A stretch of 64,000 bases of DNA from a virus. The notes beneath the pieces are model-generated. The model was given only the letters and a program-made list of their open reading frames with translations. It was not told the DNA's origin and ran no database searches. Shown here in pieces: positions 6,688 through 37,132 of the stretch (its first letter is position 1; every line of letters begins with the position of its first letter). The stretch covers positions 32,001 through 96,000 of IMG/VR virus record IMGVR_UViG_3300020192_000008; one strand, 5' to 3'. The position numbers were made by a program, and so were the translations under genes.

Positions 6688-6921
6688 TCAGCCCCTCTTC
6701 TTCTGTTCCTTCTTCACCACGTAGCTCGGTGGAAGGACGTTGACCGAGGCCATGCCGTCCTTCACGTACCCACGAAGAGCTCTTCGGACCTGGTCGGAGT
6801 CCTGCACCTCACAGCCCTCCCCTGGGTTGATGACCCAGCGGTGAACGATGATGGGCTGGTTCGACAGGCCTCGCTCCTTGAGCGCGGGCGTCTCGACGTC
6901 CGTCAGGTTGAAGATCTTCAC
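6688..6921 (-). CDS. Hypothetical protein
   Basis: 77 aa, GTGA-coupled to the upstream gene. Confidence 0.6.
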   Translation of the reverse strand: MKIFNLTDVETPALKERGLSNQPIIVHRWVINPGEGCEVQDSDQVRRALRGYVKDGMASVNVLPPSYVVKKEQKKRG

Positions 6922-16210: not shown

Positions 16211-19108
16211 CCCTTGGTTCGTTGGCCCCGAGTAACCGCCGAGGTTGGGGCCACCGCTCCGAGCGTTCTCTTTCTTCGGGGTGATGATGTCCGGCCTGGG
16301 GTGGATGATCATCGAGCCAACGAAGCAGTAGATGATAGAGTGCAACGCATCATCAGGCCGATCGGGCCTGTGCTGGTACTGGATCATGTGAAGAGACTGG
16401 TTGTACTCTGTGAAGATGTTCAGGATGTCTTGCCCGAACGGCTCACGGAACTCTTCCCACCTGGGGAACATGATCTGCTTGCGCTTGATGGCCGTGAAGA
16501 CATCGCTCACGACTTCCGTCTTGTGCACCTTCCAACGCTGCAGCTTACCGTCCCACTCGACCTTCTTCTTGTTACGGGCCATGTACTGGAAGCGGTGCAC
16601 GCGCTGGGTGCCGAAGCGACGGATCAAGTAGGCGTTGTTGTTGAAGCCACCGCCGTAGTCGCACCCGATGATGCGGACGTTGTACGCATGCAGGATGCGC
16701 TTGATCTTCTCGAGCTGGATCTCAGGGTCCGTGTCTTCACCCGTGAAGCGGTGGATGAAGAAGATCTTGAACTTCATCCCGTCGTAGTAGCCGAGACTCA
16801 TGACCGTGTAGCTGTTCTCGCCCGTGTTACCTTGGTACGCGATGCTTCCGTTACGCTCTGTGACGATGTACCCCGAAGGCACGGCGCAGCAGTACACCTT
16901 GCCCGCATAGGGGACGTGCTTCACCGCCGTGGAGGGGGTGTTGAACTGGTAGTCTCGGCCCTCCGACCACAAGGCTCTCCAGCGCGTCTTCCGGTTCCCC
17001 TCCGCAGGCTTGTGCAGCTTCACGGAGCACCGAAGACCGAGCTTTATGCAGATCTCCTGGAAGTCCTCGCACAGCCCTTTTGACGTCGAATAGAAGGCCC
17101 CTCCTGTGCAGCCCTCCCGAGGGTCCGTGTAACCGTCTCCGTCTACCAGGGCCTGAAACAAGATCCGAAGCTGCCTTTGGCCGAGGCCGAGGAACTCCCG
17201 TGGGATACGCTTCTCGTCCCCTTCGACCCCTACGTTCTGGGCGTACCACGCCCAGTACTGCTTGCCGTAAATGGTCCAGTTGACGTCCCCAGTCTTTGGG
17301 TTCGGGAACGCCTTGAACGAGACCCCCACCCGGTCGAGAGACGCCTGCATCTTGAGGTAGGTCTCGTGGTTGACCGTCTCCCTCTGCGACATCTTGAGGC
17401 AGGACGGGCGGCCCCCATCAAAGCAGACCCCGCCCTCTGTCACGAGATAGCCGAGTAGCTCCAACCAGTCGTCCATGGGGACGGTCTTGTCCTCAGAGCC
17501 CTTGTACCCAGGGCTCGTCGGCAGCCCCGGCAGCGTGAAGGCCTGCTTCTCCTCTCCTTGCCAGTCGACGTAGCCCACGAACTTGACGTTGCCGCCCCGT
17601 TCTACGAGTTCGCCCGCCGACTCGGTGAGCCACCGCTCTCCCTGGGAAGTCCCGACACGCATGCGGTGCGTATGGGTGATCATCAGATCGAGCCCCCCCT
17701 TGGTCTCGAAGTGTAGAAGTGGCTGGTCCCAGTCGCGTACCGTACGAACCTTCGGAGCCACGAAGGTCATCGCACGCGTTTCTGGATCCCACTGGGCTAC
17801 CTTGTCTTCGTCGGTGAGATCACAGAAGTACTTGAAGCCAGACTGCGTAAGAATGCGTGTCTTGTCATCGTGACAGCCCCAGTCGATGCCAGCGAAGATG
17901 TTGCCGGCGGTAGCCGTCTTGCGGATCTTCTCGAGGGCCGTGGGGTGCATCGTCAGCTTGGGGTCGCATGACTCCTTCAGCTGGCCCATGGTGATGGGCC
18001 GGAGGCCTGAGTCGTAAGACATCCCCAAGACTTCGTTGTAGAACTTGTCGCGGGGGTACCGCTCGTAGTCGAGCAGGATTTCCTCCCACGACCGCCAAGG
18101 CACCATCAGCTGGGGGATGCGGTAGCTCTCGAAGACCCCGTCACGGACCTGGTTGATCCACTTCGAGTCCTTGTGCATGGGGTCGATCTTCCCCCCGCAC
18201 TTCTCGCAGATGAGGCTCTTCTTACCGATGTTCTTCTCGCAGAGGATGTTCCAGTGCCGGCCAGCACCGCCACCAACGGAGGACCCGCAGTGGTCGCACG
18301 GCACCATCCACTCACCCTGCGTCGACATCGGGCGGCCCTTGGCCACGCCTGACCGGTAGAACTCGATGGGGTTGTCGAGCCCTTTGGGTGTGCCGGCGTA
18401 GATGAAGCGCTTGAACTTCTCCGGAGCGTGGCTTGTGCACTGCTCGATGACGGGGATGTTGTCGGCGAGAATGTCTTGGAGCTCGTCGAGGGTGAGCAGC
18501 CAGGCTGGGATGCCTCGGGTACGGTCGGCGTTGAGGAACGCATACCTCAAGGTGATCTTCGCCCGGTTGACGAACTGCTTCTCGAAGATGTTCTGCGACA
18601 GCATGGTCGTCGTGAACGTCTTCAAGACCTGGCTCGTCTCGATGGGCTCCTTGATACGGTCGACCGAGAAGACCTTCGTCTGCGTGGCTGACGGGCTCAC
18701 GTACAGCGTCTTGTACGCCGGCACGACGCACGAGTACGAGAGCATGATGTTGCCGATCATGGTCGACTTCTCGACCTGCCGGCCACAGAACAGGAGCACG
18801 CGCCTGGCTGGGGTGTTGTAGGGGCGGCGCATGTGCCGACGCCCCTCAAACGTGAAGTTCTCGTACCCCATACCGTCCTGCCGAGGCATCCGGAAGGCGA
18901 ACTCGGTGAACTGGCTGGGCAGGACAGCGGGGATCTTGACCGCTGCCCTGCGCTTCTCCTCTATCTCCCAGAAGTCCTCGAAGGGCTCTGGCTCAGGGAG
19001 CCAGGGCTTGCCGTTGTGCATCCTTCGGAGTTCTTCGTCTGTGAACTCTTCAGGCTCGAGGTCCTCTTCAGAAGGGACCGTGACGGGGTCAGGCTGGAAG
19101 CTGCTCAC
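16208..19108 (-). CDS. terL: Terminase large subunit (lambda GpA-like) with intein; ends at TTA
   Basis: GRQVEKST (Walker A variant), LTLDELQD (Walker B), GTP motif, CxxC...CxxC, GIDWG nuclease motif and C-terminal PDDALH. In-frame TTA at 16208-16210. Confidence 0.85.
16826..17875 (-). mobile_element. Intein with LAGLIDADG homing endonuclease in TerL (350 aa)
   Basis: Junctions GIDWG|CHDDKTRILT ... NGSIAYQGN|TGEN. Block B THTHRM; LAGLIDADG motifs LLGYLVTEGG and FQALVDGDG. Confidence 0.88.
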
Positions 19109-19527: not shown

Positions 19528-20443
19528 GGTGTTCCTCGAGGAGGTTCATATCCATCGTGTGGTTGCCCTGCGTCACGTCATCGACGAAGGGCAGCTCAGC
19601 CGTGTCGTTACGAAGGGCGATGGAAGCAAGCTGCTCCCTGAGATCCTCGTCTGGCTTGACGATGGCTTCCAACGTGTCGGTGATCTTGGCGACACCGTTG
19701 GTGTAGTTGATGTACTTTTCCGAATCCTTCGGACCGTTGTTGTACGCCGACTCGAACGCTCTGAGGGCACCGATGTACCTGCCTGCTTCAAGAATCTTGG
19801 CCAAGTCGAGCTTGGAAGGCATCGTCCCAAGACGCATCTGGGACAGCAGGGCTGATAGAGGCGAGAAGGGCAGGTCAGCTGCAGTCCTTCTGGCATCTGT
19901 GTAGAACGCGCGCTTGAGCGAGTCGTGCTGGCTGCGAATGCCCTCTTCAGTGTGGCTGGCTACCTGGTCTACCTCGAACTGCAGAAGAGCTCGCATCTCG
20001 GTAGAGTCGAGCAGGTCCACATCCCAGAAGAAGAACTTGTAGCGGGCTACCTCCTGCTCGGTGCAGGCGAAGCCCTTCTGCCTGGTGAGGGCGTGGGCGA
20101 TAGCAGCAGGCGGGGCCGATGAGAGAATCATCGCCTCGGTGAACTCTTTGATCCTCGGCGACTTGAGGATGCCCATGGCACCCATCACCGACTGGTCTGG
20201 ATGGAAGAGCGTGTAGAGCCCGTTCTTCAGTAGCCACCGCACAGACAAGGGATGGTTCTTGTCGTGCGGGAAGAACTGAGGAGGAGGCTTGAGCTCTCCA
20301 CGCAGACGATCGAGGTACCAGAAGCCCAGACTGGAGATCTGAGCGAACTGGCACATCACGATGATCTGATCGTTCGTGTACTTCTTGCCATGGCAGAGCA
20401 GGTACTTGAGGTACCTCTCTGCCGGCGAGCGCCTGATGATCAC
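19433..20443 (-). CDS. Hypothetical protein, candidate terminase small subunit
   Basis: 336-aa helical protein just upstream of terL, GTG start. Function is inferred from position only. Confidence 0.45.
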   Translation of the reverse strand: MIIRRSPAERYLKYLLCHGKKYTNDQIIVMCQFAQISSLGFWYLDRLRGELKPPPQFFPHDKNHPLSVRWLLKNGLYTLFHPDQSVMGAMGILKSPRIKEFTEAMILSSAPPAAIAHALTRQKGFACTEQEVARYKFFFWDVDLLDSTEMRALLQFEVDQVASHTEEGIRSQHDSLKRAFYTDARRTAADLPFSPLSALLSQMRLGTMPSKLDLAKILEAGRYIGALRAFESAYNNGPKDSEKYINYTNGVAKITDTLEAIVKPDEDLREQLASIALRNDTAELPFVDDVTQGNHTMDMNLLEEHHELPAGADDGDGSEGSPLDGGGAGGEGEDLP

Positions 20444-20450
20444 CTAAGGC

Positions 20451-22628
20451 TAACGCCTGCTGGAACGCCAGCGTCTTGAGACCCTCGATGACATCCTCGA
20501 GGTACTTCACGCACTTCTCGAGAGGGCCCTGGGGGATTTTCGAGAGCCCGAGCCTCGACGACATCAGCAGCTCACAGAGCTTCGCCTGCGTGCTGTTGAT
20601 CTCCGGCAGGTAGGAGACGAACGTGTGGATGTTCTCGGGGTTCACGAAGCCGATGGAGAGGATCGTGTCGACCGAGGTGGGGTCGGGGATGAAGGCCGCC
20701 TCCTTGAAGAGGTTGCGCTTGAGGTCGAAGGCGGGGCTCGAAGCGAGCTTCTCCTGGGACTTCCTGCGCGAGGCCATCTTCACCGACTCGGCAGGCTGGA
20801 TGTGCCGGCCCACCCGGACGTCGACCGGCATGCCATGGGCAATCGCCTGGGCAAGCTTCGTCTGGGCGTAGCCGAGGTCTGTACCCAGGCCACCCAACAG
20901 GAAGAGCGAGTCGTCGAACGACAGGAAGTGCTTCTCGTCAGACGCCAGCTTGTCGATGGGGAAGCCCTCGAACGAGAAGCTGTTGACGCCCCCCGCCCTC
21001 ACGGTCACCGAAGCAAGCTTCCGCTGGGCGTGCGCCACCTTGTTCCCGCCCTCAGGGGCGCTCACCAGGACAACGCTTTCGGCCTTGCCCATGCCCATCC
21101 ACTTGTAGTCCTTGGGCAGGAGGAACGTACCCTCATCAGCCTGGGTGGGCTTCTGGATGTTGGGCTGCAGAGAGACTGTGCACTCGCGACCATCGTAGGT
21201 CTCGACGTGCAGCTTCTGCTCCCCGTCCGTGACCTTCCCCTTGATGGTCATGGGGATGGTCGCCTCTGTCTCGTCACCACTCTGACGAACGAACACGCCG
21301 GTGCCCGTGGGGGAACCGAACATGAGCTCGCCGTTGGTGCTCTGCAGGCTACCGGCGATCTCCGGCTGCACAGCCGCCGCCGACCCGTTCGTGAACAGGG
21401 CGATGGGCAGAACTGTGCCGTCGAGGTCAGTCAGGTTGGGGAATACGAGCCCCATCATCTCGGTGCCCTCCTCGTTCTGCACCTTGTACGTGCCGAACTC
21501 GGTGATGGGCTTGAGGTCTGCCAGCGGGGCGCCTTCACCCACGGCATCGTCAGTGACGGTGACCGAGCCATGCTCATCGGCATCCTGGGCGAGCTTCACC
21601 CCGAAGTGCTTGATGATGTCGCCTCGGCTGACGGAGTGAGCCTCCTTGACCTGCCAGTACTTGTGGTTCGCCTCCTTGACCCGGTAGCCCACGTTCTCCT
21701 TCGAGACCTGGATGACCGAGGGGCGGATGGCGCTCTCCATCGAGGAAGCCACCTTCTCGCTGGTCACCTGGTTGGTGTTCCAGATCTTGTTGATGGAGGG
21801 GAGGGTGGCGTGGGCGTTCTTCACGTACGCCTGTTGAACCCCAACGTCCTTCATCTCGTGGGCGAAGGAAGTAAGGTCGGAGCTCAGTGCTGTCGGAAGG
21901 ATGGCCTCGAGCAGAGAGGCTGACTTCTCCACACCAGTCAGGTCATGACCCGAGGTCTTGAGGTCAGACTCGTTCGGGTCCTTCTTGAAGCCCTTGAGCT
22001 TCTTGGCATCGACACCAAGCACCTTCGACAGGCGCTCTGCGAACTGCGCCTTGTTCTTGTCTTCGGCCGTCTTGGTCTCAACGTGCAGCTGCTCACGCAG
22101 GTAGTACTCGAGATCTGAGCTGGTCTTGCCCATCATCCCGCCGGCGCCACCCATGCCGCTGCCATCCCGGTGGGGCGGGTAGATCTGACTGGCCATCGAC
22201 GTGTCACCTGGCGTCTTGCTGGTGACATCGAAGGTCTGTGGGCGGAAGAGGGCTTCCTTCAGACGCCGCTCGGTGAGGGGAAGAACCTTCGAGTCACCAG
22301 TAACGATGAGGTCGAGGGGCTGAAGCTTCTTGTCCTTGACCACCACCGGGATGCGAACCGACTTCACGCCCACGGCGTCCTTGGCCTGGTCGCTTGCGCC
22401 TTGCTGCAGCTCGGTCTTGTTGGAGATCTCAATGTGGCCGAATGCAAAGCCACGCTCACCATCGATTCGATCCATCACCGTGTGAGGCTCGAAGTCCGAG
22501 ATGAAGGGGATCTGCTTGTACGCTTCCTGCAAGATCTCCTGCGACCACTGGTTCGGGTCTTCAGGAAGAACAGTCTCAGCGGCCGTCTTCTGGATCGGCA
22601 GGATGGAGTCGAGGTAGAGGTTCGTCAT
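20451..22628 (-). CDS. Large virion protein with many KxA motifs (725 aa); ends at TTA
   Basis: Two in-frame TTA codons (20451-20453, 20445-20447) lie just before the next GTG start at 20443. The standard code gives a ~500-nt overlap. Confidence 0.7.
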
Positions 22629-22638
22629 CGTTCTTCTC

Positions 22639-23292
22639 TCAGGTTCCTGTCGCCAGGGTGGCCTTCATGGCTGCCCATGCGGTTGGGCTCTTAGTAACGA
22701 GAATAATACCGGAGCATACCTCGGTAGGGGCAATGCTGTACGGGCCGTAAGAAAGGCCTCCGGTGAAGCTACCGCTGATCGACGAGCCAGCTGAAGACAG
22801 CATTACGTCCTCGAACGAGAGCAAGAACACCGGTCCTGCGCTCAGGCTTGCGGCCAGTTGAGCTGCAAAAGACACGGCCGGAAGCTTCACTGCAAGAGAG
22901 CCCTGGATGAGTGCTTCAAGTCCGCCGATCTGAATGGCAAGAGCTGCAGCCAGGGAAGCCATGGCGGAGATCTGCCCAGTGGCTTCAACAGAGATGGTCG
23001 GGATAGCGCCCGATAGAGCCAGGGCAATCTGAGCTTGTAGAGCTGCGATGCCAGCGAGAGCAATCTGAAACCCGAGGAACGGGTTGGAGATGTTCAAGCC
23101 GATGTCAAAGCTTGCCTGCAGGGCTGCTGAGAGCTGCGCCTGGAAGTTGGCCTGCAGGGCCCCAAGACCCAGTGAGCCAAACAGGGCGAAGTCGATCTGA
23201 GCAAGCAACGGGTTCAGGGCCAGGAGAGATGCCTGGGCTGACACGTTGATGGAGCCCAAGGGGGCAGCGAATATGACGCCGTTGTAAGCCAT
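22639..23292 (-). CDS. Ala/Leu-rich hydrophobic protein, probably baseplate-associated
   Basis: 217 aa with almost no charged residues; follows the spike gene. Confidence 0.5.
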   Translation of the reverse strand: MAYNGVIFAAPLGSINVSAQASLLALNPLLAQIDFALFGSLGLGALQANFQAQLSAALQASFDIGLNISNPFLGFQIALAGIAALQAQIALALSGAIPTISVEATGQISAMASLAAALAIQIGGLEALIQGSLAVKLPAVSFAAQLAASLSAGPVFLLSFEDVMLSSAGSSISGSFTGGLSYGPYSIAPTEVCSGIILVTKSPTAWAAMKATLATGT

Positions 23293-23295
23293 GGT

Positions 23296-24492
23296 TCAAA
23301 CGAGGCACGATGCTTCGCCCGTGAGGATCATCCCGAAGAGAACAAGGGGAGGACTTCCAGGAACGGGTACTGGCGTAAAGGGGAAAGTGAGTTGCACCAA
23401 TGCCCCCTGAGCAGCCACGGGCTTGGAGCCCTTGCCCAGGCGAACAATGCTTCCCTTGACGTGGGCCAGAGCTCCGCCATCGAGAACCATACCGTTCTTG
23501 GCCTTCATCAAGATCTGATTCTCGCTCTCGAGAGTCAGGTCTTCTTTGCTCTTGATGTAGATCTTCTTCTTCGAGGTGAGAGCCACGTTGCCCTGCGCCC
23601 TGAGGAAGACGCCACCAGCCTTGTCGAAGAAGAACCTCATGACAACCTTGTCACGGGTCTTGTTGTCGATGGGGTCCCCTGTGTCTGCGTTGAATCCCTT
23701 GGGGGCTATCACGCACTCAACCACGATCTGCTCCTTACCGATGCTGAGCAAGTCGAGCAGGCCCTGCTCACCACCATCACCCGATGGCTCGATGATGGGG
23801 TCATGAATCTTGCCCACCTTCACCCGAACATCTGCCTCTTCATCATTGGCCAGGATGCGAAAGGTGTGGGTGTACTCGCTGGGTAGGTCCTGGTAAGCCG
23901 GGCCTTCTTGGATGCCCCAAAGAACAGACCCACCGTGGTTGTGGTGGGCATAGTTCTTCGTCATCTGCATCAACGTATCGGTGAGCGGGATGTAGATGCT
24001 CTGGCAGATCTCCGAGCAGCCGATCTGCAATACACCGCCCCGATGAAGGATAACGAAGTTGCCATCCCTCGTACGGAACCAGATGTCACCCGGCTTGGCC
24101 TTGGGCCTACCCCCTGAGAAAGTCGCGCTAGTCGAGCTCTTGTTCGGCTGGTTGTTCGACTGCGTTCCCTTGGGCGCGTCCGGAGCTGCCTGGTCGTTGT
24201 ACTCAACCGGCATGATGAACGAGCTCACGTAAGGGGGTGAGCTGTCGGAGGGGACGGTGACCATGCACTTGGCACCAACCTCGGGGAAGACGTAAGCGCC
24301 CTCCCCGTTGTTGTAGTGCAAGTACATGCTGCCTACTTGGATGCCAGCAAACCTATGCCGGTCGAACTGGCTGATGACATCCACCGTCCAGTTCGCCAGG
24401 TTGACGCCGACGATCTTCCCTTGAAGAACGTACGACTCAACGTTCCCCTCCATGAAGGTGAACGAGGTGCGGAAGCGTTGGATGCCTTGCAT
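23296..24492 (-). CDS. Baseplate central spike (gp5/gpV-like)
   Basis: N-terminal OB-fold-like pattern (PEVGAKCMV), beta-repeat C-terminal half and a tip-like end (RLG..SKPVA..G...G.I.TG). Confidence 0.55.
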   Translation of the reverse strand: MQGIQRFRTSFTFMEGNVESYVLQGKIVGVNLANWTVDVISQFDRHRFAGIQVGSMYLHYNNGEGAYVFPEVGAKCMVTVPSDSSPPYVSSFIMPVEYNDQAAPDAPKGTQSNNQPNKSSTSATFSGGRPKAKPGDIWFRTRDGNFVILHRGGVLQIGCSEICQSIYIPLTDTLMQMTKNYAHHNHGGSVLWGIQEGPAYQDLPSEYTHTFRILANDEEADVRVKVGKIHDPIIEPSGDGGEQGLLDLLSIGKEQIVVECVIAPKGFNADTGDPIDNKTRDKVVMRFFFDKAGGVFLRAQGNVALTSKKKIYIKSKEDLTLESENQILMKAKNGMVLDGGALAHVKGSIVRLGKGSKPVAAQGALVQLTFPFTPVPVPGSPPLVLFGMILTGEASCLV

Positions 24493-27400
24493 CAGTAGCT
24501 GTGCTCCGACACGTTCTCGAGGTGCTTGTAGCCAGGCAGCTTCGACTGGTTCTTGTTCAGACCAAACTCAGCGCCGTAGGCAATCGCGGGGATCGGGTGG
24601 CTGCCGTGCAAGTTGCTCTTCGACCGCATGGCTGCGCCCTCGGCGATGGTGTCGCGGAGGTTGCGGTGCTGCAGCTTCGCCATCCAGTCTTCCTGCAGTT
24701 CGAGGGGCATCATGTTGACGCCCTTCAGAACAGGGGTGTGCTCGATGGGCTTCTTGCCCGCTTTGGCCAGGTCGTTGTTCATCTTCTGCACCATGCTCAG
24801 GGGCTGGAACTCGCCGCGCAGAATGCCCTCTGAGTCCCCAGGATGCACGACCTTCGTGAGGTTTGACATGGCTTTGACGACTACTTCGACATGGCGGCGC
24901 TTGATGCCCTCGTCCTTGTAGAGGGAGTACATCTCGCTTACGAGGTGGTTCTGCACCTTGTCGATGGAGCCAGTGGCCTTGTAGAGGTCGTGCGGGTTGA
25001 GCACGGTTCGGTGGGGGTCGGACAGAGACTGCCCAGCCTCGATGTGGTCACCGATCTTGGGGGGCGCCCAGCTGAGCAGGTTCTCCTGGCCTGGCAGCAG
25101 GTGGTGCAGAGGCATGCCTGTCTGGTCCTTGCCGACATGGTGAGGGCGCTTGCCGACCCACACGTTCACGCCCGTCGCTGTGTTCTCCACCTTCTCCACC
25201 TTGCCCGAGACCATGGCCAGGGAGGCCGCGTTGGGGATCTTCTGGGGGAGCATGGCGAGCTGCTCGAAGCGGCCGAAGCCCGACACAGCGGCTGAGGCAC
25301 CACCGGCGACACCGCCAGTGTGGAACTCCTTCATGGTGAGCTGCACGGCTCGCTCACCGAGCGTGTGGCTTGAGAGCACCCCGATGTTGTCGCCGATGTT
25401 GTGCATGTGGCCAGTTGAAGACAGGCCTACGCACTTCTGGCAGATGCCCTTCTCATGCTCACACCGCAGCGGGCTACGCACCACGATCTTGGCATTCTTA
25501 TCGGCGGCCTTGATCTGCGCGACCTTGTCGGGGGTGAGCAGCTCCCCGGCCTTGATGTGTACGTGCCCAGCCTTGAAGTCGGAAGCCAGCAGGCGATCGT
25601 GTACATCCTTCTCGTTGATGTGCAGAGAGATGCCCCTGGTCGTCCCGCAGTCGGGCTGGGTCACGAGGATGTCCATCGTGTTGTTCTGCAGCAGCTTGGA
25701 CATGTAGCCAGGTTCCTGGGTCTCCTGAACCTTCATGACCGAGCCCCTGCGAGCTCCGTGCATCTGCGTCCAGTACCCGGCCATATCGAGGCCTTCGGAG
25801 TAGCTCTTCGTAACAGGCAGCGGGATGACCCTGTTGTTCGCGTCCGTGAGCAGCATGGGCGCAATCTTCATCTGCTTGTACTGAGCCCACGACGGCTTAG
25901 CCCCAGCCTTGTACATGATGTACAAGTTGTCCATCTTCTTGTCGGCTTCGATCTTGTGGGCGTCGCCGATCTCCTTGTCGGCCTTCATGTAGATGTCAAC
26001 GATACGACGCTCCTTGTCGTTCTTGTTGACCCTACTAGCCCGAACAGCATCCGCCTCCTTGTGAGCGCCGACGAGCACCTTGTCTCGACCGATCTTGTCC
26101 GTCTGGAAGTCGGCAAGAGAGAGCGTGTGCATGCCCGTGGGTACGAAGATGTTCTTCTTCGGATCGTTGATGTTGTGAACACCAACGTTAGGCATGGGCA
26201 CGGTCACCGTGCCGAAAGCCGAGTGGTTGCCCACGTCCTTCAACATGTTGACTGACTTGTCGAACTGATCCTTGTGGTCTTTGCCGAGCTTGGTGAGCAG
26301 TGACTCAAGGCCCTTCTTATCGATACGCATCTCCAGGTTGTGGAGAAGGTCTGCTTGCATGCCGAGCGGCATGGTAGTAGCGAGAAGAACCCGGCCAGCG
26401 GTCGTCTTCTTACCGTTGAGAGAGACCACGTCGTTGTAGTGGAACTTGCCCCCTCGCACGGCGTCAAGGATGTCGCCAGGAGTCTTGAACGTATGGCTCG
26501 TTTCTTTACCAACCATCGAAAGCTTGTAGAGCCCGATGGCCGAGTCGAGGGTGGGGATGAACGCCACCCGCCCCGTGTTCTCCATGAAGATATTGTTCGA
26601 CGGCTTCATGCGGTGCGCTTCGGCAACCGCGTCCCTGTGGATGGGGACGAAGACGCTCATGGTGTCTCCGTCGAAGTCGGCGTTGAACCCACCGCAGACA
26701 AGCGGATGGATCTTGATGGCGTTGCCCTCTACACGCTTAGCCTGAAATCCCTGCACGTTGTACTTGTGAAGGGCGGGGTCACGCTTGAGCAGGATAGGTC
26801 GCTCTTCCATCACGGAGTCGAGGGCCTTGATGACGCTGGGATGATCTTTCTTCGTAAGGAGCTTCTGCGCGTCGAGAGGGTTCGATGCCGCACCCATCTC
26901 CTGAAGCTTCTTGACGATGAAGGGGCGAAACAGATCAAGCGCGTGGTCCTTCGGGAGACCGACCTCATCAAGCCCCAGCGAGGGCTCTGGGACGATGGTC
27001 GAGCGCATGGTCAGGTCCTGCCGCTTCTGGACGACGGACTTCTGGAAGTACCCGTTCTTCGGGGAGGCACCGGAAATCTGATGAAGGAGCCCCTTGTGCT
27101 TTGCCTGAGCGTAGGGGACGTGTATCCCGATGACAGCCTTGACGCCGTCGTAGTAGTTCTGACGAAGCTCCTTCTTCATCTCGTCGGTCAAGTGCCGCGC
27201 CAGCGTCGGGTCCTTGAGCTTATCGTTGACAAGGGCGAACTCCGAGTACAGCTGGTTGATGTCGGCGTACTTGATGTTGCCATCAGCCATCGGGGACGCC
27301 GGCCGAAGGACTGGTGGGATGATGGGCATCTTCGTCATTACGTAGGCTTCTGATGCGCCTACGCCCAACTGATCGAGAGCCCTGAGGTACTTCACCTTCT

Positions 27401-30400
27401 TCAAGACCGGGTCAACCTTGGCCATGGGAACGGAGTTGAGCTCCTTCATCCCGGCGGCCAGGTCCTTCTTCACGTCGACCTTCGAGAGCAGGTGCTGGAT
27501 GGCCCGACCACCGGTGTGGGCTGCGTCCTTGAGCTCGACGATCTTCCCCTGGTGGTTGATGCCCGACTCGCCGTGAACGATGGCGTCGAAGTCCTTCTGG
27601 GTCAGGCCCGTGAGACTGCGGATGGGGGCCTCGAACACTGGGTTCGGCACCGGCTCTGCGAGATCGATGTGGCTCCACTTGATGCCGCCGTGCCCACCGG
27701 TGAGCTTCTCATCAAAGAGACCACCAGGCCTGGGCTTGAGCTCACCGGACTTGTCGACCTTGGCTTCGAGGCGTTCAGCTGGCTTGGGCAGGGCCCTGCC
27801 AGCCGAGAGCTCCATCACATGCTTGTCCGTCAGGGGCGAGAGGATGAGCTCGTGGCCCTTCTTCTCGATGTTCACCCCTGAGCCCTTGAGCATGTCCTCG
27901 AACTTCTTGAAGGCGAAGGTGCTCTTGGGCGTGGGCAGAGGAGCGCCTGTCTGGATGGCGTTCCACACCTGCAGGTGCTGGCTTGGCCACTTCTTGCTCT
28001 CGTTGGTCTGGGGGTCTTCACCCTCCCCCTTCCACGTCTGCATCTCCCGGATGTTCGCCTTCGCCCCGTGGGCAAGCAGGGCGTACATACCGAGTGAACC
28101 GATGCGCTGACCTGAGCCGGGCTGCAGGTTCTGGTCATAGCGGTCACGGTTGGGTTGACCTGGAAGGCCCATGCCCGAAGCCACGGTGACCTTCTTGTCG
28201 ACCTGGTGAACCAGCTTGAGGATGTGCTGGTGACCCGTCATGGCATGCCCCAGTGATTGCCCCGTGACCGGGTCGATGAGCTCCTCGGTGTCGTGCAGGC
28301 CGTGGCTCTTCAGCTCCGCCTGCACCTTCGCCACCATGTCGACGTCCTTCTGAAAGGCCTGAACGACGTAGGGCTTACCCGTCTTGATGGCGATCTTCGA
28401 CGCTGCCGTCTCGAGCAGTTGGCTCACATTCATACGACCAGGCACGCCCGTGGGGTTGAGCGCTACCTCGATGGGCTTGCCATCCTTGCTGTGGGGCATC
28501 TCATGGTCGGGCAGAACCATGGTGACAATGCCCTTGTTGCCGTACCGACCGGCGAGCTTGTCGCCTGACTGCATGGGCTCGTGCGTCTTGACGTGTACCT
28601 GCAGGCCACCCTTGCCATTGGTGACAGAGACAACTTCCCCCTCAACCTCTCCCTCCCAGCGCAGGGACTTGTCGGCATGGCTGCCGGCCAGAGACTTGCG
28701 GATGGCCGAGACACCCGTCCTGTCCTTGAGCTCGAAGGGCTTCATGGCCAGGGCCAGGGGATCTCCAGGGGTGACCTTGGAGCCAACCTTGATGACGCCG
28801 TCGTCACCGAAGTTGACCAGCTGCTCCTTCTTGTAGACCCCGGGGTGTTGGATCTGAAACTTGCGGGTGCTCAGGATGGTGTCGGTGTCGACGGGCACCG
28901 TGTGCTTGTGCAAGTGCATCGAGGCGAGCTTCTTGGAAGCCGTCTCGCTGATGACAACGCCGTCCTCGAAGTTGTACCCCTTGAAGGGGATGAAGGCGAC
29001 GCGCAGGTTTGAGCCAAGCGCGAGAACGCCATCCTTCGAGTAGTTGGTGTCAGCGACTGTCTCGCCCTTCTTCACCTTGTCACCCACCTTCACAAGAGCG
29101 CTCGAGTGGAGCACGCTCTTCGTGTCATTGGTCGGGTAGTGGTTGTAGAGAGGGACGTCGTGCTTGTCGCCGTTCTTGTCCTTGATGACGATGTTGTCAG
29201 CGTGGATTGAATGCACGACACCATCAGCCGTTGCTTGGTGCGAAGCCTGGCTGCCAAGCACGGCCTCGAAGCTCTGAAGGCCTGGCGTGTAGACGCCGGT
29301 GCCCACCTGAACGAGAGGCGCTTCTCGGTTGACGAGGGAGATAGACTGCTCGATGTGGCGGGTGGCCATCGACACGCGGTTGCCCGAGCAGTTGTTCATG
29401 AACGGCACGAGGTTCGATGTCATGTTGAACACCTGGCTCGAGTGCTTCATGACGTAGTGGGCATCCTTGAAGGGGATGGGGCCCATGTCGTTGTCGTCTT
29501 GGGCGGCCTGCACCGTCTTGCTCAGTGGGACCGGCTTGCCGTTCTCCCACTTCACCTGGTCTGCCAGCACCACGCTTGACTTCATGAACAGAGCAGGGGG
29601 GACCAAGTCCATCTTGCCCGTCTTGAGGTTGTACAGGGGGACAACAGGATCGTTACCCAGCTTCCGTACACCGAGAGGCAAGCGCAACGTCACGCCAGTC
29701 TTCGAGCCTTCGGGCGTGTTCACGGGATCGAGAAAGCCGAAGTGGCTCTTGTTGAGCATCTTCGCTTCGTTGGTGACAGCCTGCTCACTCTGGATGCCGC
29801 CCGAACCCATGATGGTAGTCTGCATTGCAGAGCTCATCATCTCGACCGGGTTGATCTGAGAAGCCACACGAGCTGCAGAGTTCTTGTGGAACGACTGCTT
29901 GATCGGCTCGTTGAACATCTCGAGCTTTACGATCTCCCTGATGTCGCTCTTCGAGTTGATGTTCCTCGATGCCTTCATGGCGATGGTTCGACCAGCCGCC
30001 TTGATCTTGTCGTGGGCGAAGTCTCCAGCTGAACGCAGGTCCTTGAAGATGAGGCTGTCCCGGTCATCCTCTGGGTGACCCGCCTGCACCTTGAGCATCT
30101 TCTGCGTCGCCAGGTGCAAGGCCTCACCACTCACGTGATCGATGGGCTTGCCCAGCGTGACGGACGTAGCGTCAGTACGCATCTTCGAGTTCTGCATCGC
30201 CTCGAAGAAGTGCGTCTCAGCAACCTCCTTCGAGATAGGTGCCTCTTTGCGGTCTGACTTGTAGAAGCGCTCGAGCGTACCGGCGGCACCACGGGCATTC
30301 TTGTTGGCCGCGAAGATCTCTTTGCCCCAGCTCTTCTCGAGATCGTCGTCAGAGATGCCCATCGTCTTGATGAGCGGATAGAGCGGCAGTTTGCTCTTGT

Positions 30401-30872
30401 TGTACTCCATGTAGAACTGCTTCGACTTCTCATCGAAGAGCACATCGAATGGAGCCTTGCCCTGAACGTTGAAGCGTGTCTCGAGCTCACCGTTCTGACG
30501 ACGACGCGTGTAGGCACCGGGCTTGAGTTGCCACTGATTGTCGACCTGGTACTCCTGCCCATCCATGATGTAGGAGTAGCGCTGAGTCTGACGGGGGATC
30601 TCCGCGATGCGTACGCGGCGTTGATCCACCACTTTGCCAGTGGCGTTATCAACGAGACGCATGTGCCCGTAGACTGGAGCAGAGAAGCTGCCGCCGTTGA
30701 TCTTCGCCTTGTGTTGGACCCTCAAGTCATCGGGGTGTAGCTCATCCTTTACTTCAAGCTTGTCAAGGTGAAGGGTCTGCACCTTCCCCTTCATAGGGAA
30801 GTTCGTCTGGATGCCTTCCAGCGTTCTATCGCGGAAGTGCTCGAACGCTTCTTGAGGGTCTAGATGAGCCAT
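24492..30872 (-). CDS. rpoBC: Phage-encoded RNA polymerase, fused beta-beta' single polypeptide (2126 aa)
   Basis: Beta motifs DPVNTPEG, GYNFEDG, GDKLAGRYGNKG, NPTGVPGRMN and GQRIG. Beta' motifs GGLFDE, RSTIVP, KRDPALH, catalytic NADFDGD, GERAVQLTMKEFHTGG and RHVEVVV. No stop between the halves. Confidence 0.95.
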   Translation of the reverse strand: MAHLDPQEAFEHFRDRTLEGIQTNFPMKGKVQTLHLDKLEVKDELHPDDLRVQHKAKINGGSFSAPVYGHMRLVDNATGKVVDQRRVRIAEIPRQTQRYSYIMDGQEYQVDNQWQLKPGAYTRRRQNGELETRFNVQGKAPFDVLFDEKSKQFYMEYNKSKLPLYPLIKTMGISDDDLEKSWGKEIFAANKNARGAAGTLERFYKSDRKEAPISKEVAETHFFEAMQNSKMRTDATSVTLGKPIDHVSGEALHLATQKMLKVQAGHPEDDRDSLIFKDLRSAGDFAHDKIKAAGRTIAMKASRNINSKSDIREIVKLEMFNEPIKQSFHKNSAARVASQINPVEMMSSAMQTTIMGSGGIQSEQAVTNEAKMLNKSHFGFLDPVNTPEGSKTGVTLRLPLGVRKLGNDPVVPLYNLKTGKMDLVPPALFMKSSVVLADQVKWENGKPVPLSKTVQAAQDDNDMGPIPFKDAHYVMKHSSQVFNMTSNLVPFMNNCSGNRVSMATRHIEQSISLVNREAPLVQVGTGVYTPGLQSFEAVLGSQASHQATADGVVHSIHADNIVIKDKNGDKHDVPLYNHYPTNDTKSVLHSSALVKVGDKVKKGETVADTNYSKDGVLALGSNLRVAFIPFKGYNFEDGVVISETASKKLASMHLHKHTVPVDTDTILSTRKFQIQHPGVYKKEQLVNFGDDGVIKVGSKVTPGDPLALAMKPFELKDRTGVSAIRKSLAGSHADKSLRWEGEVEGEVVSVTNGKGGLQVHVKTHEPMQSGDKLAGRYGNKGIVTMVLPDHEMPHSKDGKPIEVALNPTGVPGRMNVSQLLETAASKIAIKTGKPYVVQAFQKDVDMVAKVQAELKSHGLHDTEELIDPVTGQSLGHAMTGHQHILKLVHQVDKKVTVASGMGLPGQPNRDRYDQNLQPGSGQRIGSLGMYALLAHGAKANIREMQTWKGEGEDPQTNESKKWPSQHLQVWNAIQTGAPLPTPKSTFAFKKFEDMLKGSGVNIEKKGHELILSPLTDKHVMELSAGRALPKPAERLEAKVDKSGELKPRPGGLFDEKLTGGHGGIKWSHIDLAEPVPNPVFEAPIRSLTGLTQKDFDAIVHGESGINHQGKIVELKDAAHTGGRAIQHLLSKVDVKKDLAAGMKELNSVPMAKVDPVLKKVKYLRALDQLGVGASEAYVMTKMPIIPPVLRPASPMADGNIKYADINQLYSEFALVNDKLKDPTLARHLTDEMKKELRQNYYDGVKAVIGIHVPYAQAKHKGLLHQISGASPKNGYFQKSVVQKRQDLTMRSTIVPEPSLGLDEVGLPKDHALDLFRPFIVKKLQEMGAASNPLDAQKLLTKKDHPSVIKALDSVMEERPILLKRDPALHKYNVQGFQAKRVEGNAIKIHPLVCGGFNADFDGDTMSVFVPIHRDAVAEAHRMKPSNNIFMENTGRVAFIPTLDSAIGLYKLSMVGKETSHTFKTPGDILDAVRGGKFHYNDVVSLNGKKTTAGRVLLATTMPLGMQADLLHNLEMRIDKKGLESLLTKLGKDHKDQFDKSVNMLKDVGNHSAFGTVTVPMPNVGVHNINDPKKNIFVPTGMHTLSLADFQTDKIGRDKVLVGAHKEADAVRASRVNKNDKERRIVDIYMKADKEIGDAHKIEADKKMDNLYIMYKAGAKPSWAQYKQMKIAPMLLTDANNRVIPLPVTKSYSEGLDMAGYWTQMHGARRGSVMKVQETQEPGYMSKLLQNNTMDILVTQPDCGTTRGISLHINEKDVHDRLLASDFKAGHVHIKAGELLTPDKVAQIKAADKNAKIVVRSPLRCEHEKGICQKCVGLSSTGHMHNIGDNIGVLSSHTLGERAVQLTMKEFHTGGVAGGASAAVSGFGRFEQLAMLPQKIPNAASLAMVSGKVEKVENTATGVNVWVGKRPHHVGKDQTGMPLHHLLPGQENLLSWAPPKIGDHIEAGQSLSDPHRTVLNPHDLYKATGSIDKVQNHLVSEMYSLYKDEGIKRRHVEVVVKAMSNLTKVVHPGDSEGILRGEFQPLSMVQKMNNDLAKAGKKPIEHTPVLKGVNMMPLELQEDWMAKLQHRNLRDTIAEGAAMRSKSNLHGSHPIPAIAYGAEFGLNKNQSKLPGYKHLENVSEHSY

Positions 30873-30933
30873 CTTTGTGTCTCTGGTGAGGGTACTCCAC
30901 GCGCAAGAGTCGGTGCAAGGTACGCTTTTTCAG

Positions 30934-30942
30934 CGGCATAAG
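30934..30942 (+). promoter_or_regulatory. Candidate phage promoter element CGGCATAAG
   Basis: In the divergent intergenic region. Identical 9-mer at 57020-57028 and related GGGATAAAG at 40554-40562. Confidence 0.35.
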
Positions 30943-35110: not shown

Positions 35111-37132
35111 TCAGACTGCTGCCTGAGCTCTCCTGGGGGGAAGCTTCTCGGGCAATGGCGTCATGTTGACGGCGGGTTGAGCTGCCTGTCCCGGGCCTGT
35201 GGCGATGCCCATCTTGGCGAGCATCTGCCGGACCATGTCTGCGAGTTCGGGGCTTTGCGCTTCGAGGTTCGAGAGAGCTGCCTGCTGTTGGTCAGCGGGC
35301 ATGCTGGAGATCATCTGGGCTTGCTGGTAGGCGATGGTGGGCAGGTCCATCTGTCCGCCTGGGGGCATCTGCTGGCCGGCGTTGAGGGGGGATTGGGTCT
35401 GGCTCATGGGGTCAGGCTGGCCACCCTGGGGGTTGGCTTGTGATTGCTGGCCTGGCGACTGACCCGGGGCTGCCTCGGCCGGCATGCCCTGCTCTTGCCC
35501 GCCTGGGGTGCCTTGACCCATGGCGTCTTGTCCGCCTGGCTCTCCAGGGGCAGGGCCCTGGGCCATGTCCTGCTGTTGAGCCTGTTGCGCCTTGGCCTGG
35601 TACTTCCCCATGATGAGCTGCTGCTGACCTTGAAGGTCTGCCGTAGCAAGCTGCTGAGCCCGGGTAGCCTCGATACGGCTGGCCGTCTCTTTCTTCATGA
35701 TGGCGTTCTCCTCTTCCTGAGAGAGGTCAGCGTCAGCAAGAAGGGTGGTGTCGGAGATCTTCTGGCCCTGGTTGAGCTGGAAGAGGTAGGCCTTGCGCTG
35801 CAGGTCGTCGGCCATCTTGAAGGGCTTGAACCTGATGTTCACCTTCGGCCATTGCATGAAGGCGGCGACCTCGTTCATCACCCACTTGACCATGGCCTTG
35901 TGGCGCAGGATGTAGCCGATGAACGCGTTCTCGAGCATCCGCATCGACACGTTCGTGCCGGCGTAACTCATGCCGCCGAGGAGGAACTCCCTCGGCACAC
36001 CCATGCCCGTGATGATCTGCTCCGACCACTGCTGGATTTCTCCAGTGAGGAGGAGAGCCCGTCCATCGCCGCCCACGGTCTGGTTGCCGAGGGGCAGAGG
36101 CATGATGGGGATGTAGTTCTGGTCCCACCTCCACTTCGCAATCTCACCGGCGACGTGCTCACGCCACTCGACCAGGTTGATGGTGGTGTAGGGGTCTGAA
36201 GTACCCGAGCCTGCCTGAGGGAACAGGATGCGCAGAGGGACAATGTGCTCGAGGAGGATGGCCTCCTGCGCTTTCTTCATCACCTGCAGGTAGAAGACGT
36301 CCTTGAGGACGGGCATGAGCAGGGGGATGCCCCAGCCACGGTCTTGTGTTGCCAGGGTAGGCCGGCGCAGGTGGAAGAAGTTGTCCTTGGAGAAGACAAT
36401 GCCCTTCGCTTCTTTCAGCGCCGCAATGAAGACCTGCGGCACTCCTTCAACGACTTCCTTCTTGCCGATGAGGATGTCGTTCTTCACCTGCGGAGGGATC
36501 GTATAGAAGTAGGTGTACTCCCCGGTGACGTCGTTGTACTGGACCTCGACGTCTTCAGGGTTCCACCTGATGAGCTTGATGCCTGCGGCGTTGCGGATGT
36601 AGAAGTCCTGCGCAACGGCGTCAGCTGTGGTGCCGCACTTGGGGCACGTCATCCGGAAGGCGTAGTTGGTGATGACCCAGCTGTTGCGGGTCTTCTTGGC
36701 AGGGGCCGAGAACTGGCAACTCGAGCACTTGAGGTACTTGGTGAACGGGTAGCTGATCGACACCATCCCGTTGCCGTAGCAGTTGTAGTCGAGGCCAACC
36801 TCGATCTGAAACGCACGGTAGCGCAGGTGGTCCTGGAAGTAGTCGGTCCACTTCCGCACGACTTCCGGGTCTTCGTGATCGATGATGAGGTCAGTGACAG
36901 GGTACTCACTGAGCTTGAACACCGTCGCGTTGATGAGCGGGTTCGTCAGGAAGTAGTACCGGCACCACTGGAACATCTTCTTCATCGTCTGCGGCAGCCA
37001 TGTCTGCGCGACGTCAAAGAAGGGGCTGGGGTAGCTGACGCTATTCGCCATAGCCCCCTGCATCCTGCCCCGGGACATTGTCCTCATCCCAGGACCCGCC
37101 CCACCACCACCCGGATTACCGATCATACTCAT
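35111..37132 (-). CDS. Portal protein
   Basis: 673 aa with YFLTNPLIN, DYNCYGNG, FFHLRR..GWGIP and I.TGMGVP.EFL.GG..YA portal-type motifs, a CxxC...CxxC insert and a Q/P-rich tail. Confidence 0.75.
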   Translation of the reverse strand: MSMIGNPGGGGAGPGMRTMSRGRMQGAMANSVSYPSPFFDVAQTWLPQTMKKMFQWCRYYFLTNPLINATVFKLSEYPVTDLIIDHEDPEVVRKWTDYFQDHLRYRAFQIEVGLDYNCYGNGMVSISYPFTKYLKCSSCQFSAPAKKTRNSWVITNYAFRMTCPKCGTTADAVAQDFYIRNAAGIKLIRWNPEDVEVQYNDVTGEYTYFYTIPPQVKNDILIGKKEVVEGVPQVFIAALKEAKGIVFSKDNFFHLRRPTLATQDRGWGIPLLMPVLKDVFYLQVMKKAQEAILLEHIVPLRILFPQAGSGTSDPYTTINLVEWREHVAGEIAKWRWDQNYIPIMPLPLGNQTVGGDGRALLLTGEIQQWSEQIITGMGVPREFLLGGMSYAGTNVSMRMLENAFIGYILRHKAMVKWVMNEVAAFMQWPKVNIRFKPFKMADDLQRKAYLFQLNQGQKISDTTLLADADLSQEEENAIMKKETASRIEATRAQQLATADLQGQQQLIMGKYQAKAQQAQQQDMAQGPAPGEPGGQDAMGQGTPGGQEQGMPAEAAPGQSPGQQSQANPQGGQPDPMSQTQSPLNAGQQMPPGGQMDLPTIAYQQAQMISSMPADQQQAALSNLEAQSPELADMVRQMLAKMGIATGPGQAAQPAVNMTPLPEKLPPRRAQAAV

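What the first reader, a model, noticed from the sequence alone, without database searches (positions are those of the whole stretch)
24492..30872. Single-chain, bacteria-like beta-beta' RNA polymerase inside the virion module
A streamlined 2126-aa fusion with intact NADFDGD is TGATG-coupled to the baseplate spike gene, suggesting late expression and possibly packaging (inference). The junction lies near ...MLKGSGVNIEKK-GHELILSPLT.... The N-terminal beta' zinc-binding domain is missing (GGLFDEKLTGG runs straight to WSHIDL), while the second zinc site (DCG, RSPLRC, CQKC) is retained. No alpha or sigma gene is visible in the window. Its motifs look much more like cellular RpoB/RpoC than the split, highly diverged phiKZ-type enzymes.
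Basis: partly seen in the sequence, partly recalled or inferred. Interest (0 to 1): 0.7.

Follow-up and report, generated by a model that had tools for sequence, protein, structure and literature searches.

The report
Single-chain phage RNA polymerase (beta-beta' fused)
An uncultured phage of roughly 185 kb encodes both large subunits of a bacterial-type RNA polymerase as one intact 2126-residue protein next to its tail-spike gene. Hundreds of related phages share this layout, which is barely described in print, and it probably lets the phage transcribe its genes without the host enzyme.

Summary
Window 24492-30872 (-) is one 2126-aa ORF, colinear with bacterial beta then beta'. All catalytic elements are intact. 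It lacks only the E. coli lineage-specific inserts and the beta' N-terminal zinc ribbon. It overlaps (TGATG) a gene that I confirmed by profile and fold to be a central baseplate spike.

It is not a recent capture. It is about 26% identical to E. coli and S. aureus RpoB+RpoC, which are 57% identical to each other. In a tree it falls outside a clade of 20 bacteria from eight or more phyla.

It belongs to a large uncultured phage lineage: 322 IMG/VR stretches, and 80 of 80 full-length loci are single ORFs. That lineage is sister to Salmonella phage Arash and Vibrio phages D69/D181, which share the fusion and the zinc-ribbon loss but carry the beta' C-terminal part as a separate gene.

In Arash, these proteins and a FliA-like sigma gave top signals in virion mass spectrometry, so packaging is plausible but unproven here. 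Complete relatives encode sigma-70-family factors, no alpha or omega, and only one such polymerase. The missing sigma here reflects an incomplete (58%) contig.

This scan had already found the same family on other genomes. I found no paper describing the full fusion.

The parts
24492..30872 (-). Single-chain beta-beta' RNA polymerase gene, 2126 aa
   Evidence: ORF and translation. Pfam beta and beta' domains. Colinear MAFFT alignment with E. coli RpoB+RpoC over 1994 columns.
27861..30872 (-). Beta module (about residues 1-1004): lobes, fork loop, flap, DPBB (GDKLAGRYGNKG, K772/K780), C-terminal clamp part
   Evidence: AF2 model has pLDDT 87.4 and pTM 0.81. The Foldseek top 50 are all bacterial beta chains, TMq 0.74-0.79. 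Motif alignment.
24495..27860 (-). Beta' module (about residues 1005-2126): clamp helices, lid/rudder, active site, bridge helix, trigger loop without SI3
   Evidence: PDB beta' sequences match at E about 1e-107 to 1e-90. Alignment.
27843..27875 (-). Beta/beta' junction (residues 1000-1010), essentially without a linker
   Evidence: The same junction occurs in Arash gp206, Vibrio D69_0261 and the three-piece variant P0152.
27681..27686 (-). Site where the beta' N-terminal zinc ribbon (E. coli 68-99) is missing (between residues 1063 and 1064)
   Evidence: The deletion is shared with Arash and D69.
26664..26684 (-). Mg-binding NADFDGD (residues 1397-1403)
25431..25649 (-). Second beta' zinc site (C1742, C1804, C1811, C1814)
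   Evidence: Invariant in 18 relatives. Aligned to E. coli C814/C888/C895/C898.
24490..24494 (-). TGATG stop/start overlap between the RNAP gene and the spike gene
   Evidence: 28 of 80 related loci also have a stop/start overlap here.
23296..24492 (-). Central baseplate spike (gpV/gp5/VgrG-like), 398 aa
   Evidence: Atlas leads. Profile hit to spikes in PDB, E 8e-4. AF2 pLDDT 80 and 22 Foldseek hits at E<=1e-3, those listed being spike or baseplate chains. A homologue is found in 71 of 83 loci, lying directly downstream of the RNAP in the loci inspected.
19947..23292 (-). Two conserved downstream genes of unknown function (217 aa and 893 aa) in the same operon
   Evidence: Synteny in 41 and 68 loci. 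No Pfam or PHROG family. Atlas gave no answer for the 893-aa protein.
30889..30918 (-). Conserved promoter-like element TTGCAC-N18-TACCCT ahead of the RNAP start
   Evidence: Recognisable in most of 16 relatives' upstream regions by inspection. Occurs once in the 107-kb contig. Fails a strict E. coli sigma-70 scan.
30916..30942 (+). Divergent sigma-28-like element CAAG-N16-GGCATAAG, pointing away from the RNAP
   Evidence: One of 6 such sites in the contig against 0.44 expected.
35111..37132 (-). Portal homologue (673 aa)
   Evidence: 29-31% identical to Arash gp204 (annotated portal) and Vibrio D181_0261, E about 1e-85. In those phages it sits just upstream of the RNAP.
15968..19108 (-). Large terminase subunit, with a possible LAGLIDADG insert
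   Evidence: phrog_675 at 2e-52, GpA_ATPase, Terminase_6C, weak LAGLIDADG_3.

Best explanation
Shown by sequence and fold. The ORF encodes the catalytic core of the phage's own bacterial-type multisubunit RNA polymerase, made as one chain. Beta is joined head-to-tail to beta' at the point where the two termini lie close together in cellular enzymes. Both double-psi barrels, the Mg site, bridge helix, trigger loop, flap and clamp helices are kept. The beta' zinc ribbon and the lineage-specific inserts are absent.

Shown by comparison. The fusion is the fixed state in a large lineage of 165-200 kb phages. Complete relatives have a single such polymerase, no alpha and no omega, but do encode sigma-70-family factors, including FliA/WhiG-like ones.

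Inferred.
- The covalent link replaces the assembly role of the alpha dimer.
- The enzyme works with phage sigma factor(s) on phage promoters.
- Its rifampicin pocket is altered, so it should be insensitive to the drug.
- It is made with virion parts as the first gene of the operon that continues with spike, 217-aa, 893-aa and later terminase genes.
- It is packaged and delivered with the DNA to start early transcription, as suggested for Arash.
For: Identity and integrity.

Fixed fusion: top 120 protein clusters are 56-69% identical and about 2120-2160 aa. 322 IMG/VR stretches. 80 of 80 full-length loci are single ORFs.

Not cellular: 26% identity to E. coli and S. aureus against 57% between those two. 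The best bacterial loci are at most about 30-32% identical. In the tree the family (99*) plus Arash/D69 (100*) lies outside the bacterial clade (100*).

One polymerase per complete genome. No alpha or omega.

Sigma: G001 and G002 have Sigma70_r3+r4 proteins of FliA/SigB-F-G type. Arash Gp10 is FliA/WhiG-like.

Sigma-28-like promoter set: 6 sites against 0.44 expected.

Virion link: TGATG coupling to the spike. Position between portal and terminase. In Arash virion mass spectrometry, Gp206 gave 3516 spectra (the highest), Gp216 1210 and sigma Gp10 467.

Rif pocket: D516S, H526S, R529Q, S531T in E. coli numbering.
Against: No experiment exists for this phage or its close relatives.

The Arash preparation was sucrose-gradient material in which 116 of about 270 proteins were detected, including ribonucleotide reductases. 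Its authors note possible carry-over.

Arash is only 30% identical to this protein.

No sigma gene lies in this 58%-complete contig.

The element ahead of the RNAP gene looks like a housekeeping TTGnnn-N18-TAnnnT promoter and is unique in the contig. Host-driven, non-late expression therefore cannot be excluded.

Use of host alpha or omega cannot be excluded from sequence.
Confidence: 0.6

Rival explanations
1. The enzyme is active and phage-specific but is not packaged. It is made during infection and serves only middle or late transcription. Host RNA polymerase, or an injected factor, starts the programme.
For: The element ahead of the gene resembles a generic TTGnnn-N18-TAnnnT promoter that a host holoenzyme could read. 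The Arash virion list is very long, and its authors allow for contamination by abundant proteins. Gene position next to virion genes says nothing directly about the protein's location.
Against: Arash Gp206 is the top mass-spectrometry signal, above the major capsid protein, and a sigma factor co-purifies at 100% coverage. Complete relatives carry only one polymerase set, unlike phiKZ, which separates virion and non-virion enzymes. The gene is tightly coupled to the spike gene across the lineage.
Confidence: 0.3
2. It is a recently captured host rpoB-rpoC that fused in the phage.
For: Full colinearity with bacterial beta and beta', and bacterial top hits in PDB by both sequence and fold.
Against: About 26% identity to E. 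coli and S. aureus against 57% between those two, which belong to different phyla. The best of 50 bacterial loci is at most about 30-32% identical. The family sits outside a starred clade of 20 bacteria from eight or more phyla. The fusion and zinc-ribbon loss are shared with phages only 30% identical.
Confidence: 0.03
3. It is a degenerate polymerase relic with a structural or non-catalytic role in the particle.
For: The zinc ribbon is lost and the Rif-pocket region is very divergent.
Against: The Mg-binding aspartates, the beta lysines (K772/K780), bridge helix, trigger loop and second zinc site are invariant or nearly so across 18-63 relatives that are 37-70% identical.
Confidence: 0.02

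Closest known systems
RNA polymerase of Salmonella phage Arash (Gp206 + Gp216; OQ632216; PMC10585845) and Vibrio phages D69/D181 (OZ195729, OZ196140)
   Same: The same beta/beta' junction fusion and the same loss of the beta' zinc ribbon. A portal gene lies upstream. These phages are the sister clade in the tree. Genomes are about 180-187 kb, with phage sigma factors. In Arash the proteins were found in virion preparations.
   Different: Only 30-31% identical. Beta' is cut after about residue 1495, so the enzyme has two chains (1525 + 606 aa). In D181 it is further interrupted by homing-endonuclease genes. The Mg motif reads AADYDGD and the trigger loop is degenerate. The Arash paper annotates Gp206 simply as 'beta subunit'; the word 'fused' does not occur in its text.
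mReC, multisubunit-RNAP-encoding Caudovirales (Weinheimer & Aylward 2020, PMC7481178)
   Same: Uncultured tailed phages whose beta/beta' can be aligned to cellular enzymes and branch outside cellular clades.
   Different: The part of the mReC table I read lists beta and beta' as separate proteins (about 1000-1400 and 900-1100 aa), and some contigs have two sets. Their capsid and terminase families (PF07068, PF03237) were not found here. An mReC-sized split pair (L157) does not group with this family.
phiKZ / AR9 virion and non-virion multisubunit RNAPs (review PMC7598289)
   Same: Phage-encoded two-barrel polymerases without alpha or omega. One set is packaged and injected.
   Different: Those are split into four or five polypeptides, come in two sets per genome, are very divergent, and use a phage-specific fifth subunit rather than a sigma-70-family factor (statements taken from the review, and from general knowledge). 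Here there is one chain and one set, and sigma-70-family genes occur in relatives.
crAss-like phage gp66-type single-chain virion RNAP
   Same: One giant polypeptide carrying both barrels. It is packaged (as cited in PMC7481178).
   Different: The crAss enzyme has no recognisable sequence similarity to COG0085/COG0086. This protein aligns to bacterial beta/beta' end to end.
Natural rpoB-rpoC fusions of Helicobacter and Wolbachia; engineered E. coli beta-beta' fusions
   Same: Same joining order and site (beta C-terminus to beta' N-terminus). They show that such a chain can be functional.
   Different: Those are ordinary cellular enzymes with alpha, omega, a zinc ribbon and lineage inserts. This is a phage enzyme about 26% identical to the bacterial RpoB/RpoC it was aligned with.

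Membership tests
Bacterial-type multisubunit RNAP large subunits (beta/RpoB + beta'/RpoC) | Beta double-psi barrel with the conserved lysines, and the Rpb2_6 domain | tested here: met
   PF00562 at 1.7e-58. GDKLAGRYGNKG with K772/K780 invariant.
Bacterial-type multisubunit RNAP large subunits (beta/RpoB + beta'/RpoC) | Beta' barrel with NADFDGD, bridge helix and trigger loop | tested here: met
Bacterial-type multisubunit RNAP large subunits (beta/RpoB + beta'/RpoC) | Overall beta fold, including lobes and flap | tested here: met
   AF2 pLDDT 87, with TMq 0.74-0.79 to bacterial beta chains.
Bacterial-type multisubunit RNAP large subunits (beta/RpoB + beta'/RpoC) | Beta' N-terminal zinc-binding domain | tested here: not met
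   E. coli 68-99 is absent.
Bacterial-type multisubunit RNAP large subunits (beta/RpoB + beta'/RpoC) | Partner alpha dimer and omega encoded alongside | tested here: not met
   No PF01000, PF01193 or PF01192 in this contig, two complete relatives, Arash or D69. Use of host alpha cannot be tested.
Bacterial-type multisubunit RNAP large subunits (beta/RpoB + beta'/RpoC) | Placement within Bacteria in a tree | tested here: not met
   Falls outside the starred bacterial clade (quick LG+G4 tree, no archaeal outgroup).
Arash / Vibrio D69-like phage RNAP clade | Beta C-terminus fused to beta' N-terminus, and zinc ribbon lost | tested here: met
Arash / Vibrio D69-like phage RNAP clade | Beta' C-terminal third encoded as a separate gene | tested here: not met
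   One ORF here and in 80 of 80 family loci, against 1525+606 aa in Arash.
Arash / Vibrio D69-like phage RNAP clade | Monophyly with Arash/D69 | tested here: met
   Sister groups joined at SH-aLRT 100.
mReC (PMC7481178) | Separate beta and beta' genes; T4-like capsid PF07068; terminase PF03237 | tested here: not met
phiKZ-type jumbo-phage RNAPs | Four or five split polypeptides, two sets per genome | tested here: not met
   PHROG matches to those families are only 1e-30 or weaker.
Virion-packaged RNA polymerases (functional class) | Protein present in purified particles and active at infection start | not testable with these tools
   Only indirect evidence: Arash mass spectrometry and gene linkage to the spike.

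The most novel reading that the evidence does not exclude
This lineage carries a self-sufficient, alpha- and omega-less, single-chain bacterial-type RNA polymerase. The enzyme is loaded into the capsid together with a FliA-like sigma factor and is ejected with the DNA. Infection would then be independent of host RNA polymerase from the first minute. The enzyme would represent a deep branch beside all bacterial RNAPs and would be a natural minimal form of the cellular transcription machine.
Probability: 0.35. Interest if true: 0.75.

Novelty: new variant of a known kind. Interest (0 to 1): 0.55.

Why it matters
If active on its own or with one sigma factor, this would be the simplest natural bacterial-type RNA polymerase: one gene, with no alpha and no omega.

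- It would be useful for structural work and for orthogonal transcription systems.
- It would test whether the alpha dimer is needed only for assembly.
- It would define a third solution for host-independent phage transcription, beside phiKZ-type split enzymes and crAss/N4-type giant enzymes, in an abundant and almost unstudied lineage of 165-200 kb phages.
- Because the protein aligns well to cellular enzymes, it is also a better marker than most phage genes for asking how old such phage polymerases are.

Tried and rejected
- Sigma in this contig: Sigma70_r2, r4 and r4_2 scans were all negative.
- A 22%-identity tblastn match of the D69 sigma at G000 103372-103944 lies inside an 830-aa ORF and was dropped.
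- The 231-aa ORF at 15515-16210 (+) has orthologues with faint Sigma70_r4 hits. It turned out to be an HTH_17/MerR-type protein beside the terminase, more likely a small terminase subunit than a sigma.
- Pfam and PHROG gave nothing for the spike, the 217-aa and 893-aa genes, or the portal homologue. The Atlas gave nothing usable for the 893-aa protein.
- A strict E. coli sigma-70 promoter scan found no site around the gene.
- I first read 'TCTTATGCC ... CTTGC' upstream of the RNAP as part of its own promoter. Read on the other strand, it fits a divergent sigma-28-like element.
- Literature searches for a described fully fused phage beta-beta' enzyme found none. The mReC tables list split genes only in the part I read.
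- I considered recent capture from a host and rejected it.
Full report
**The object.** The window is part of a 107,272-bp IMG/VR virus contig that CheckV rates 58% complete. G+C is about 60%. At 24492-30872 on the minus strand there is one ATG-to-TGA ORF of 2126 codons. Pfam finds the beta domains Rpb2_3 and Rpb2_6 at residues 336-897. It finds the beta' domains Rpb1_1 (weak), Rpb1_2 and Rpb1_5 at residues 1143-2017. PDB sequences of bacterial beta' match at E about 1e-107 to 1e-90. PHROG families of phiKZ-type subunits match only at 1e-30 or weaker.

**Anatomy against E. coli.** I made a MAFFT alignment with E. coli RpoB+RpoC, S. aureus RpoB+RpoC, Arash, Vibrio D69 and four family members. 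It is colinear over 1994 columns. These E. coli segments of 12 or more residues are absent:
- beta 5-23 and 401-419
- beta 224-340 (SI1), 938-1049 (SI2) and 1125-1178
- beta' 3-27
- beta' 68-99 (the zinc ribbon with its four cysteines)
- short beta' stretches at 130-142, 159-170, 553-569, 706-719 and 1389-1403
- beta' 948-1133 (SI3)

The large beta inserts and SI3 are known lineage-specific inserts (established knowledge). 'Streamlined' therefore mostly means 'without the E. coli extras', plus a real loss of the zinc ribbon.

These elements are kept:
- the beta barrel lysines (GDKLAGRYGNKG)
- the H1237-equivalent histidine
- flap and flap-tip region
- lid, clamp helices and rudder
- NADFDGD at residues 1397-1403
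- bridge helix
- the second zinc site (C1742, C1804, C1811, C1814)
- a bacterial-looking trigger loop (MKEFHTGG)

All of these are invariant or nearly so among 18 relatives that are 57-69% identical. The beta ones are also conserved among 63 relatives that are 38-70% identical.

The rifampicin-pocket positions D516, H526, R529 and S531 read S, S, Q and T. From this I infer insensitivity to the drug.

An AlphaFold2 model of residues 1-1010 has mean pLDDT 87.4 and pTM 0.81. It superposes on complete bacterial beta chains with TMq 0.74-0.79, and all top 50 hits are bacterial. The N-terminal third, which has no Pfam hit, therefore does form the usual lobes.

**The junction.** The beta C-terminal helix (...FEDMLKGSGVNIEKK) continues directly into the beta' N-terminal strand (GHELILSPLTD...). 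This is the joining order and site known from natural and engineered cellular fusions (established knowledge).

**Neighbours.** The stop codon overlaps the next start as TGATG. Pfam and PHROG find nothing for that 398-aa gene. A profile of 49 orthologues hits gp5/VgrG-type spikes in PDB at E 8e-4 and below. An AlphaFold2 model (pLDDT 80.4) gives 22 Foldseek matches at E<=1e-3. The matches listed at that level are central spikes or baseplate chains of contractile injection systems, T6SS, R2 pyocin, P2 gpV, phi812, P1, PhiTE and phi92.

Downstream follow two conserved unknowns (217 and 893 aa) and the large terminase. Upstream, beyond a divergent four-gene cassette (MoxR-type AAA ATPase plus DUF2201/VWA), lies a 673-aa homologue of the Arash portal. 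The major head protein is at 7482-8603. The polymerase gene therefore sits inside the particle-gene block.

**How widespread it is.** The large protein collection returns more than 120 clusters at 56-69% identity. Most are 2119-2163 aa, and a minority of 2400-2950 aa mostly carry intein or LAGLIDADG domains. IMG/VR holds 322 matching stretches. The best 80 are 37-68% identical and, unless cut by a contig end, colinear from residue 1 to about 2105-2126, on contigs up to 199 kb. Among 87 loci, 80 are full length and all 80 are single ORFs; the other 7 are cut by contig ends.

Gene order is conserved, including the spike homologue found in 71 of 83 loci. Six MAG contigs of phage size carry the same gene, with bins named Myxococcales, Anaerolineales, Desulfatibacillum, Deltaproteobacteria, Leptolyngbyaceae and one unnamed. 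The Myxococcales-binned one is 69% identical. I read these as binned phage contigs and at best weak host hints.

**Relation to cells and other phages.** The protein is 26.4% identical to E. coli and 25.8% to S. aureus, while those two are 56.7% identical to each other. The best true bacterial rpoBC loci reach about 30-32%.

I built a quick maximum-likelihood tree (44 rows, 2022 columns, LG+G4, SH-aLRT support):
- The 17 family rows form a clade (99).
- That clade is sister to Arash+D69 (100).
- The 20 bacteria from eight or more phyla form their own clade (100).
- Two other pairs of fused ORFs from MAG contigs sit on separate long branches.

The tree is unrooted, has long branches and uses a simple model. 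It shows 'not nested in sampled bacteria', not depth of origin.

Arash (gp206 1525 aa + gp216 606 aa) and Vibrio D69 (1527 + 609 aa) share the junction fusion and the zinc-ribbon loss but have the last third of beta' as a separate gene. D181 is further interrupted by homing-endonuclease genes. A three-piece variant (P0152: beta C-half plus beta' N-half) also keeps the junction. A few beta-only proteins at 31-37% identity exist. The one I inspected ends in a low-complexity tail right at the junction, so it may be a frameshift. The junction fusion therefore looks old within this super-clade, with later cuts elsewhere.

The published mReC phages list beta and beta' as separate proteins in the part of the table I read, and have other capsid and terminase families.

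**Partners.** No alpha (PF01000, PF01193) or omega (PF01192) is detectable in this contig, two complete relatives, Arash or D69, although the same searches ring in all 14 control genomes. Each complete genome has exactly one Rpb2_6 match.

No sigma is found in this contig. The complete relatives G001 and G002 have 281- and 367-aa proteins with Sigma70_r3 plus r4; the 281-aa one scores best against FliA/WhiG and SigB/F/G models. G006 has a clear FliA-like factor. Arash Gp10 is FliA/WhiG-like, and Arash gp196 and the D69 factor are RpoD/RpoS-like. All of these score below the curated cut-offs. In G001 the sigma gene lies at about 147 kb, while this contig's left end corresponds to about 156 kb of G001. 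The gene therefore most likely falls in the unassembled part.

**Promoter leads.** Most of the 16 relatives' upstream regions show, by inspection, TTGCAC-N18-TACCCT-like boxes ahead of the RNAP start. This pair occurs once in the contig and fails a strict E. coli scan.

On the other strand, CAA[AG]-N14-19-G[GC][GC]ATAAG occurs six times against 0.44 expected (maximum 2 in 50 shuffles), always on the plus strand. Four sites are at the contig's left end with a start codon 4-6 nt downstream. One is divergent from the RNAP (window 30916-30942), and one is at 57002-57028. The box resembles the sigma-28 -10 element GCCGATAA (established knowledge) and fits the FliA-like factors. This is a lead, not a demonstration.

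**Packaging.** The only experimental datum is from Arash. In sucrose-gradient particles, Gp206 gave the most spectra (3516), Gp216 gave 1210 and sigma Gp10 gave 467 at 100% coverage. However, 116 proteins were detected, and the authors allow for carry-over of abundant proteins. Together with the spike coupling and the single polymerase set, I rate packaging at about even odds.

**Prior notes.** This scan had already noted the same family on several other genomes, and follow-up agents reached similar conclusions. I re-derived the points I use here. Other first-reader notes propose TTA as a stop codon in this phage. I checked only that the RNAP ORF has no TTA codon among 183 leucine codons, which is weak evidence in a 60% G+C genome.

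**Verdict.** This is a real, intact and conserved gene. It is a fully fused variant of the little-studied Arash-type phage RNA polymerase, not a captured host gene. I found no published description of the full fusion.

Noticed in passing
G000 771-797, 1450-1476, 6711-6737, 7257-7282 (left of the window); window 30916-30942 (+) and 57002-57028 (+): Sigma-28-like promoter set CAA[AG]-N14-19-G[GC][GC]ATAAG: 6 sites against 0.44 expected. Four are followed by ATG or GTG within 4-6 nt, which suggests leaderless or near-leaderless early genes. A second repeated box, TACATCTTCCAC, lies about 27 nt upstream of three of them.
   Followed up: partly
window 15968-19108 (-): The large terminase is 1046 aa, with a weak LAGLIDADG_3 match at residues 648-719 between the ATPase and nuclease parts. 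This may be an intein or homing-endonuclease insert.
   Followed up: no
relatives P0003, P0027, P0041, P0058, P0075, P0090 and loci such as L005: Several RNAP orthologues are 2400-2950 aa and carry LAGLIDADG or intein-splicing Pfam domains. The fused polymerase is therefore a frequent intein host.
   Followed up: no
window 32324-34885 (+); L146 17640-20626: A MoxR-type AAA ATPase plus a DUF2201/VWA protein (phrog_1297 + phrog_1314) sits between portal and RNAP here. The same pair lies near a different fused RNAP lineage in a Nitrospirae-binned contig.
   Followed up: no
L125, L146, L154, L165 (MAG contigs from genome contigs): Other single-ORF beta-beta' proteins (2043-2306 aa, 25-28% identical, G+C 33-40%) occur in phage-like contexts and branch apart from this family. 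A phrog_7998 helicase-like gene follows three of them. The fusion may have arisen more than once.
   Followed up: partly
window 15515-16210 (+): A 231-aa protein with an N-terminal HTH_17/MerR-type domain, convergent with the terminase and conserved in relatives. It is probably a small terminase subunit or a regulator.
   Followed up: partly
window 24492-30872 (-): No TTA codon among 183 leucine codons of the RNAP, and only 2 TTA trinucleotides in any frame. Other first-reader notes propose TTA as a stop codon in this phage. I did not test that.
   Followed up: no
L112-L117 (genome contigs); G005: Phage-sized contigs carrying this RNAP are binned into MAGs named Myxococcales (69% identity), Anaerolineales, Desulfatibacillum, Deltaproteobacteria and Leptolyngbyaceae, plus one unnamed bin. 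One IMG/VR relative is flagged 'provirus'. These are possible host hints or binning artefacts.
   Followed up: no
L001 (Vibrio phage D181) 8001-15917: The D181 and D148 polymerase is broken into more pieces than in D69 by inserted homing-endonuclease genes and small ORFs.
   Followed up: no
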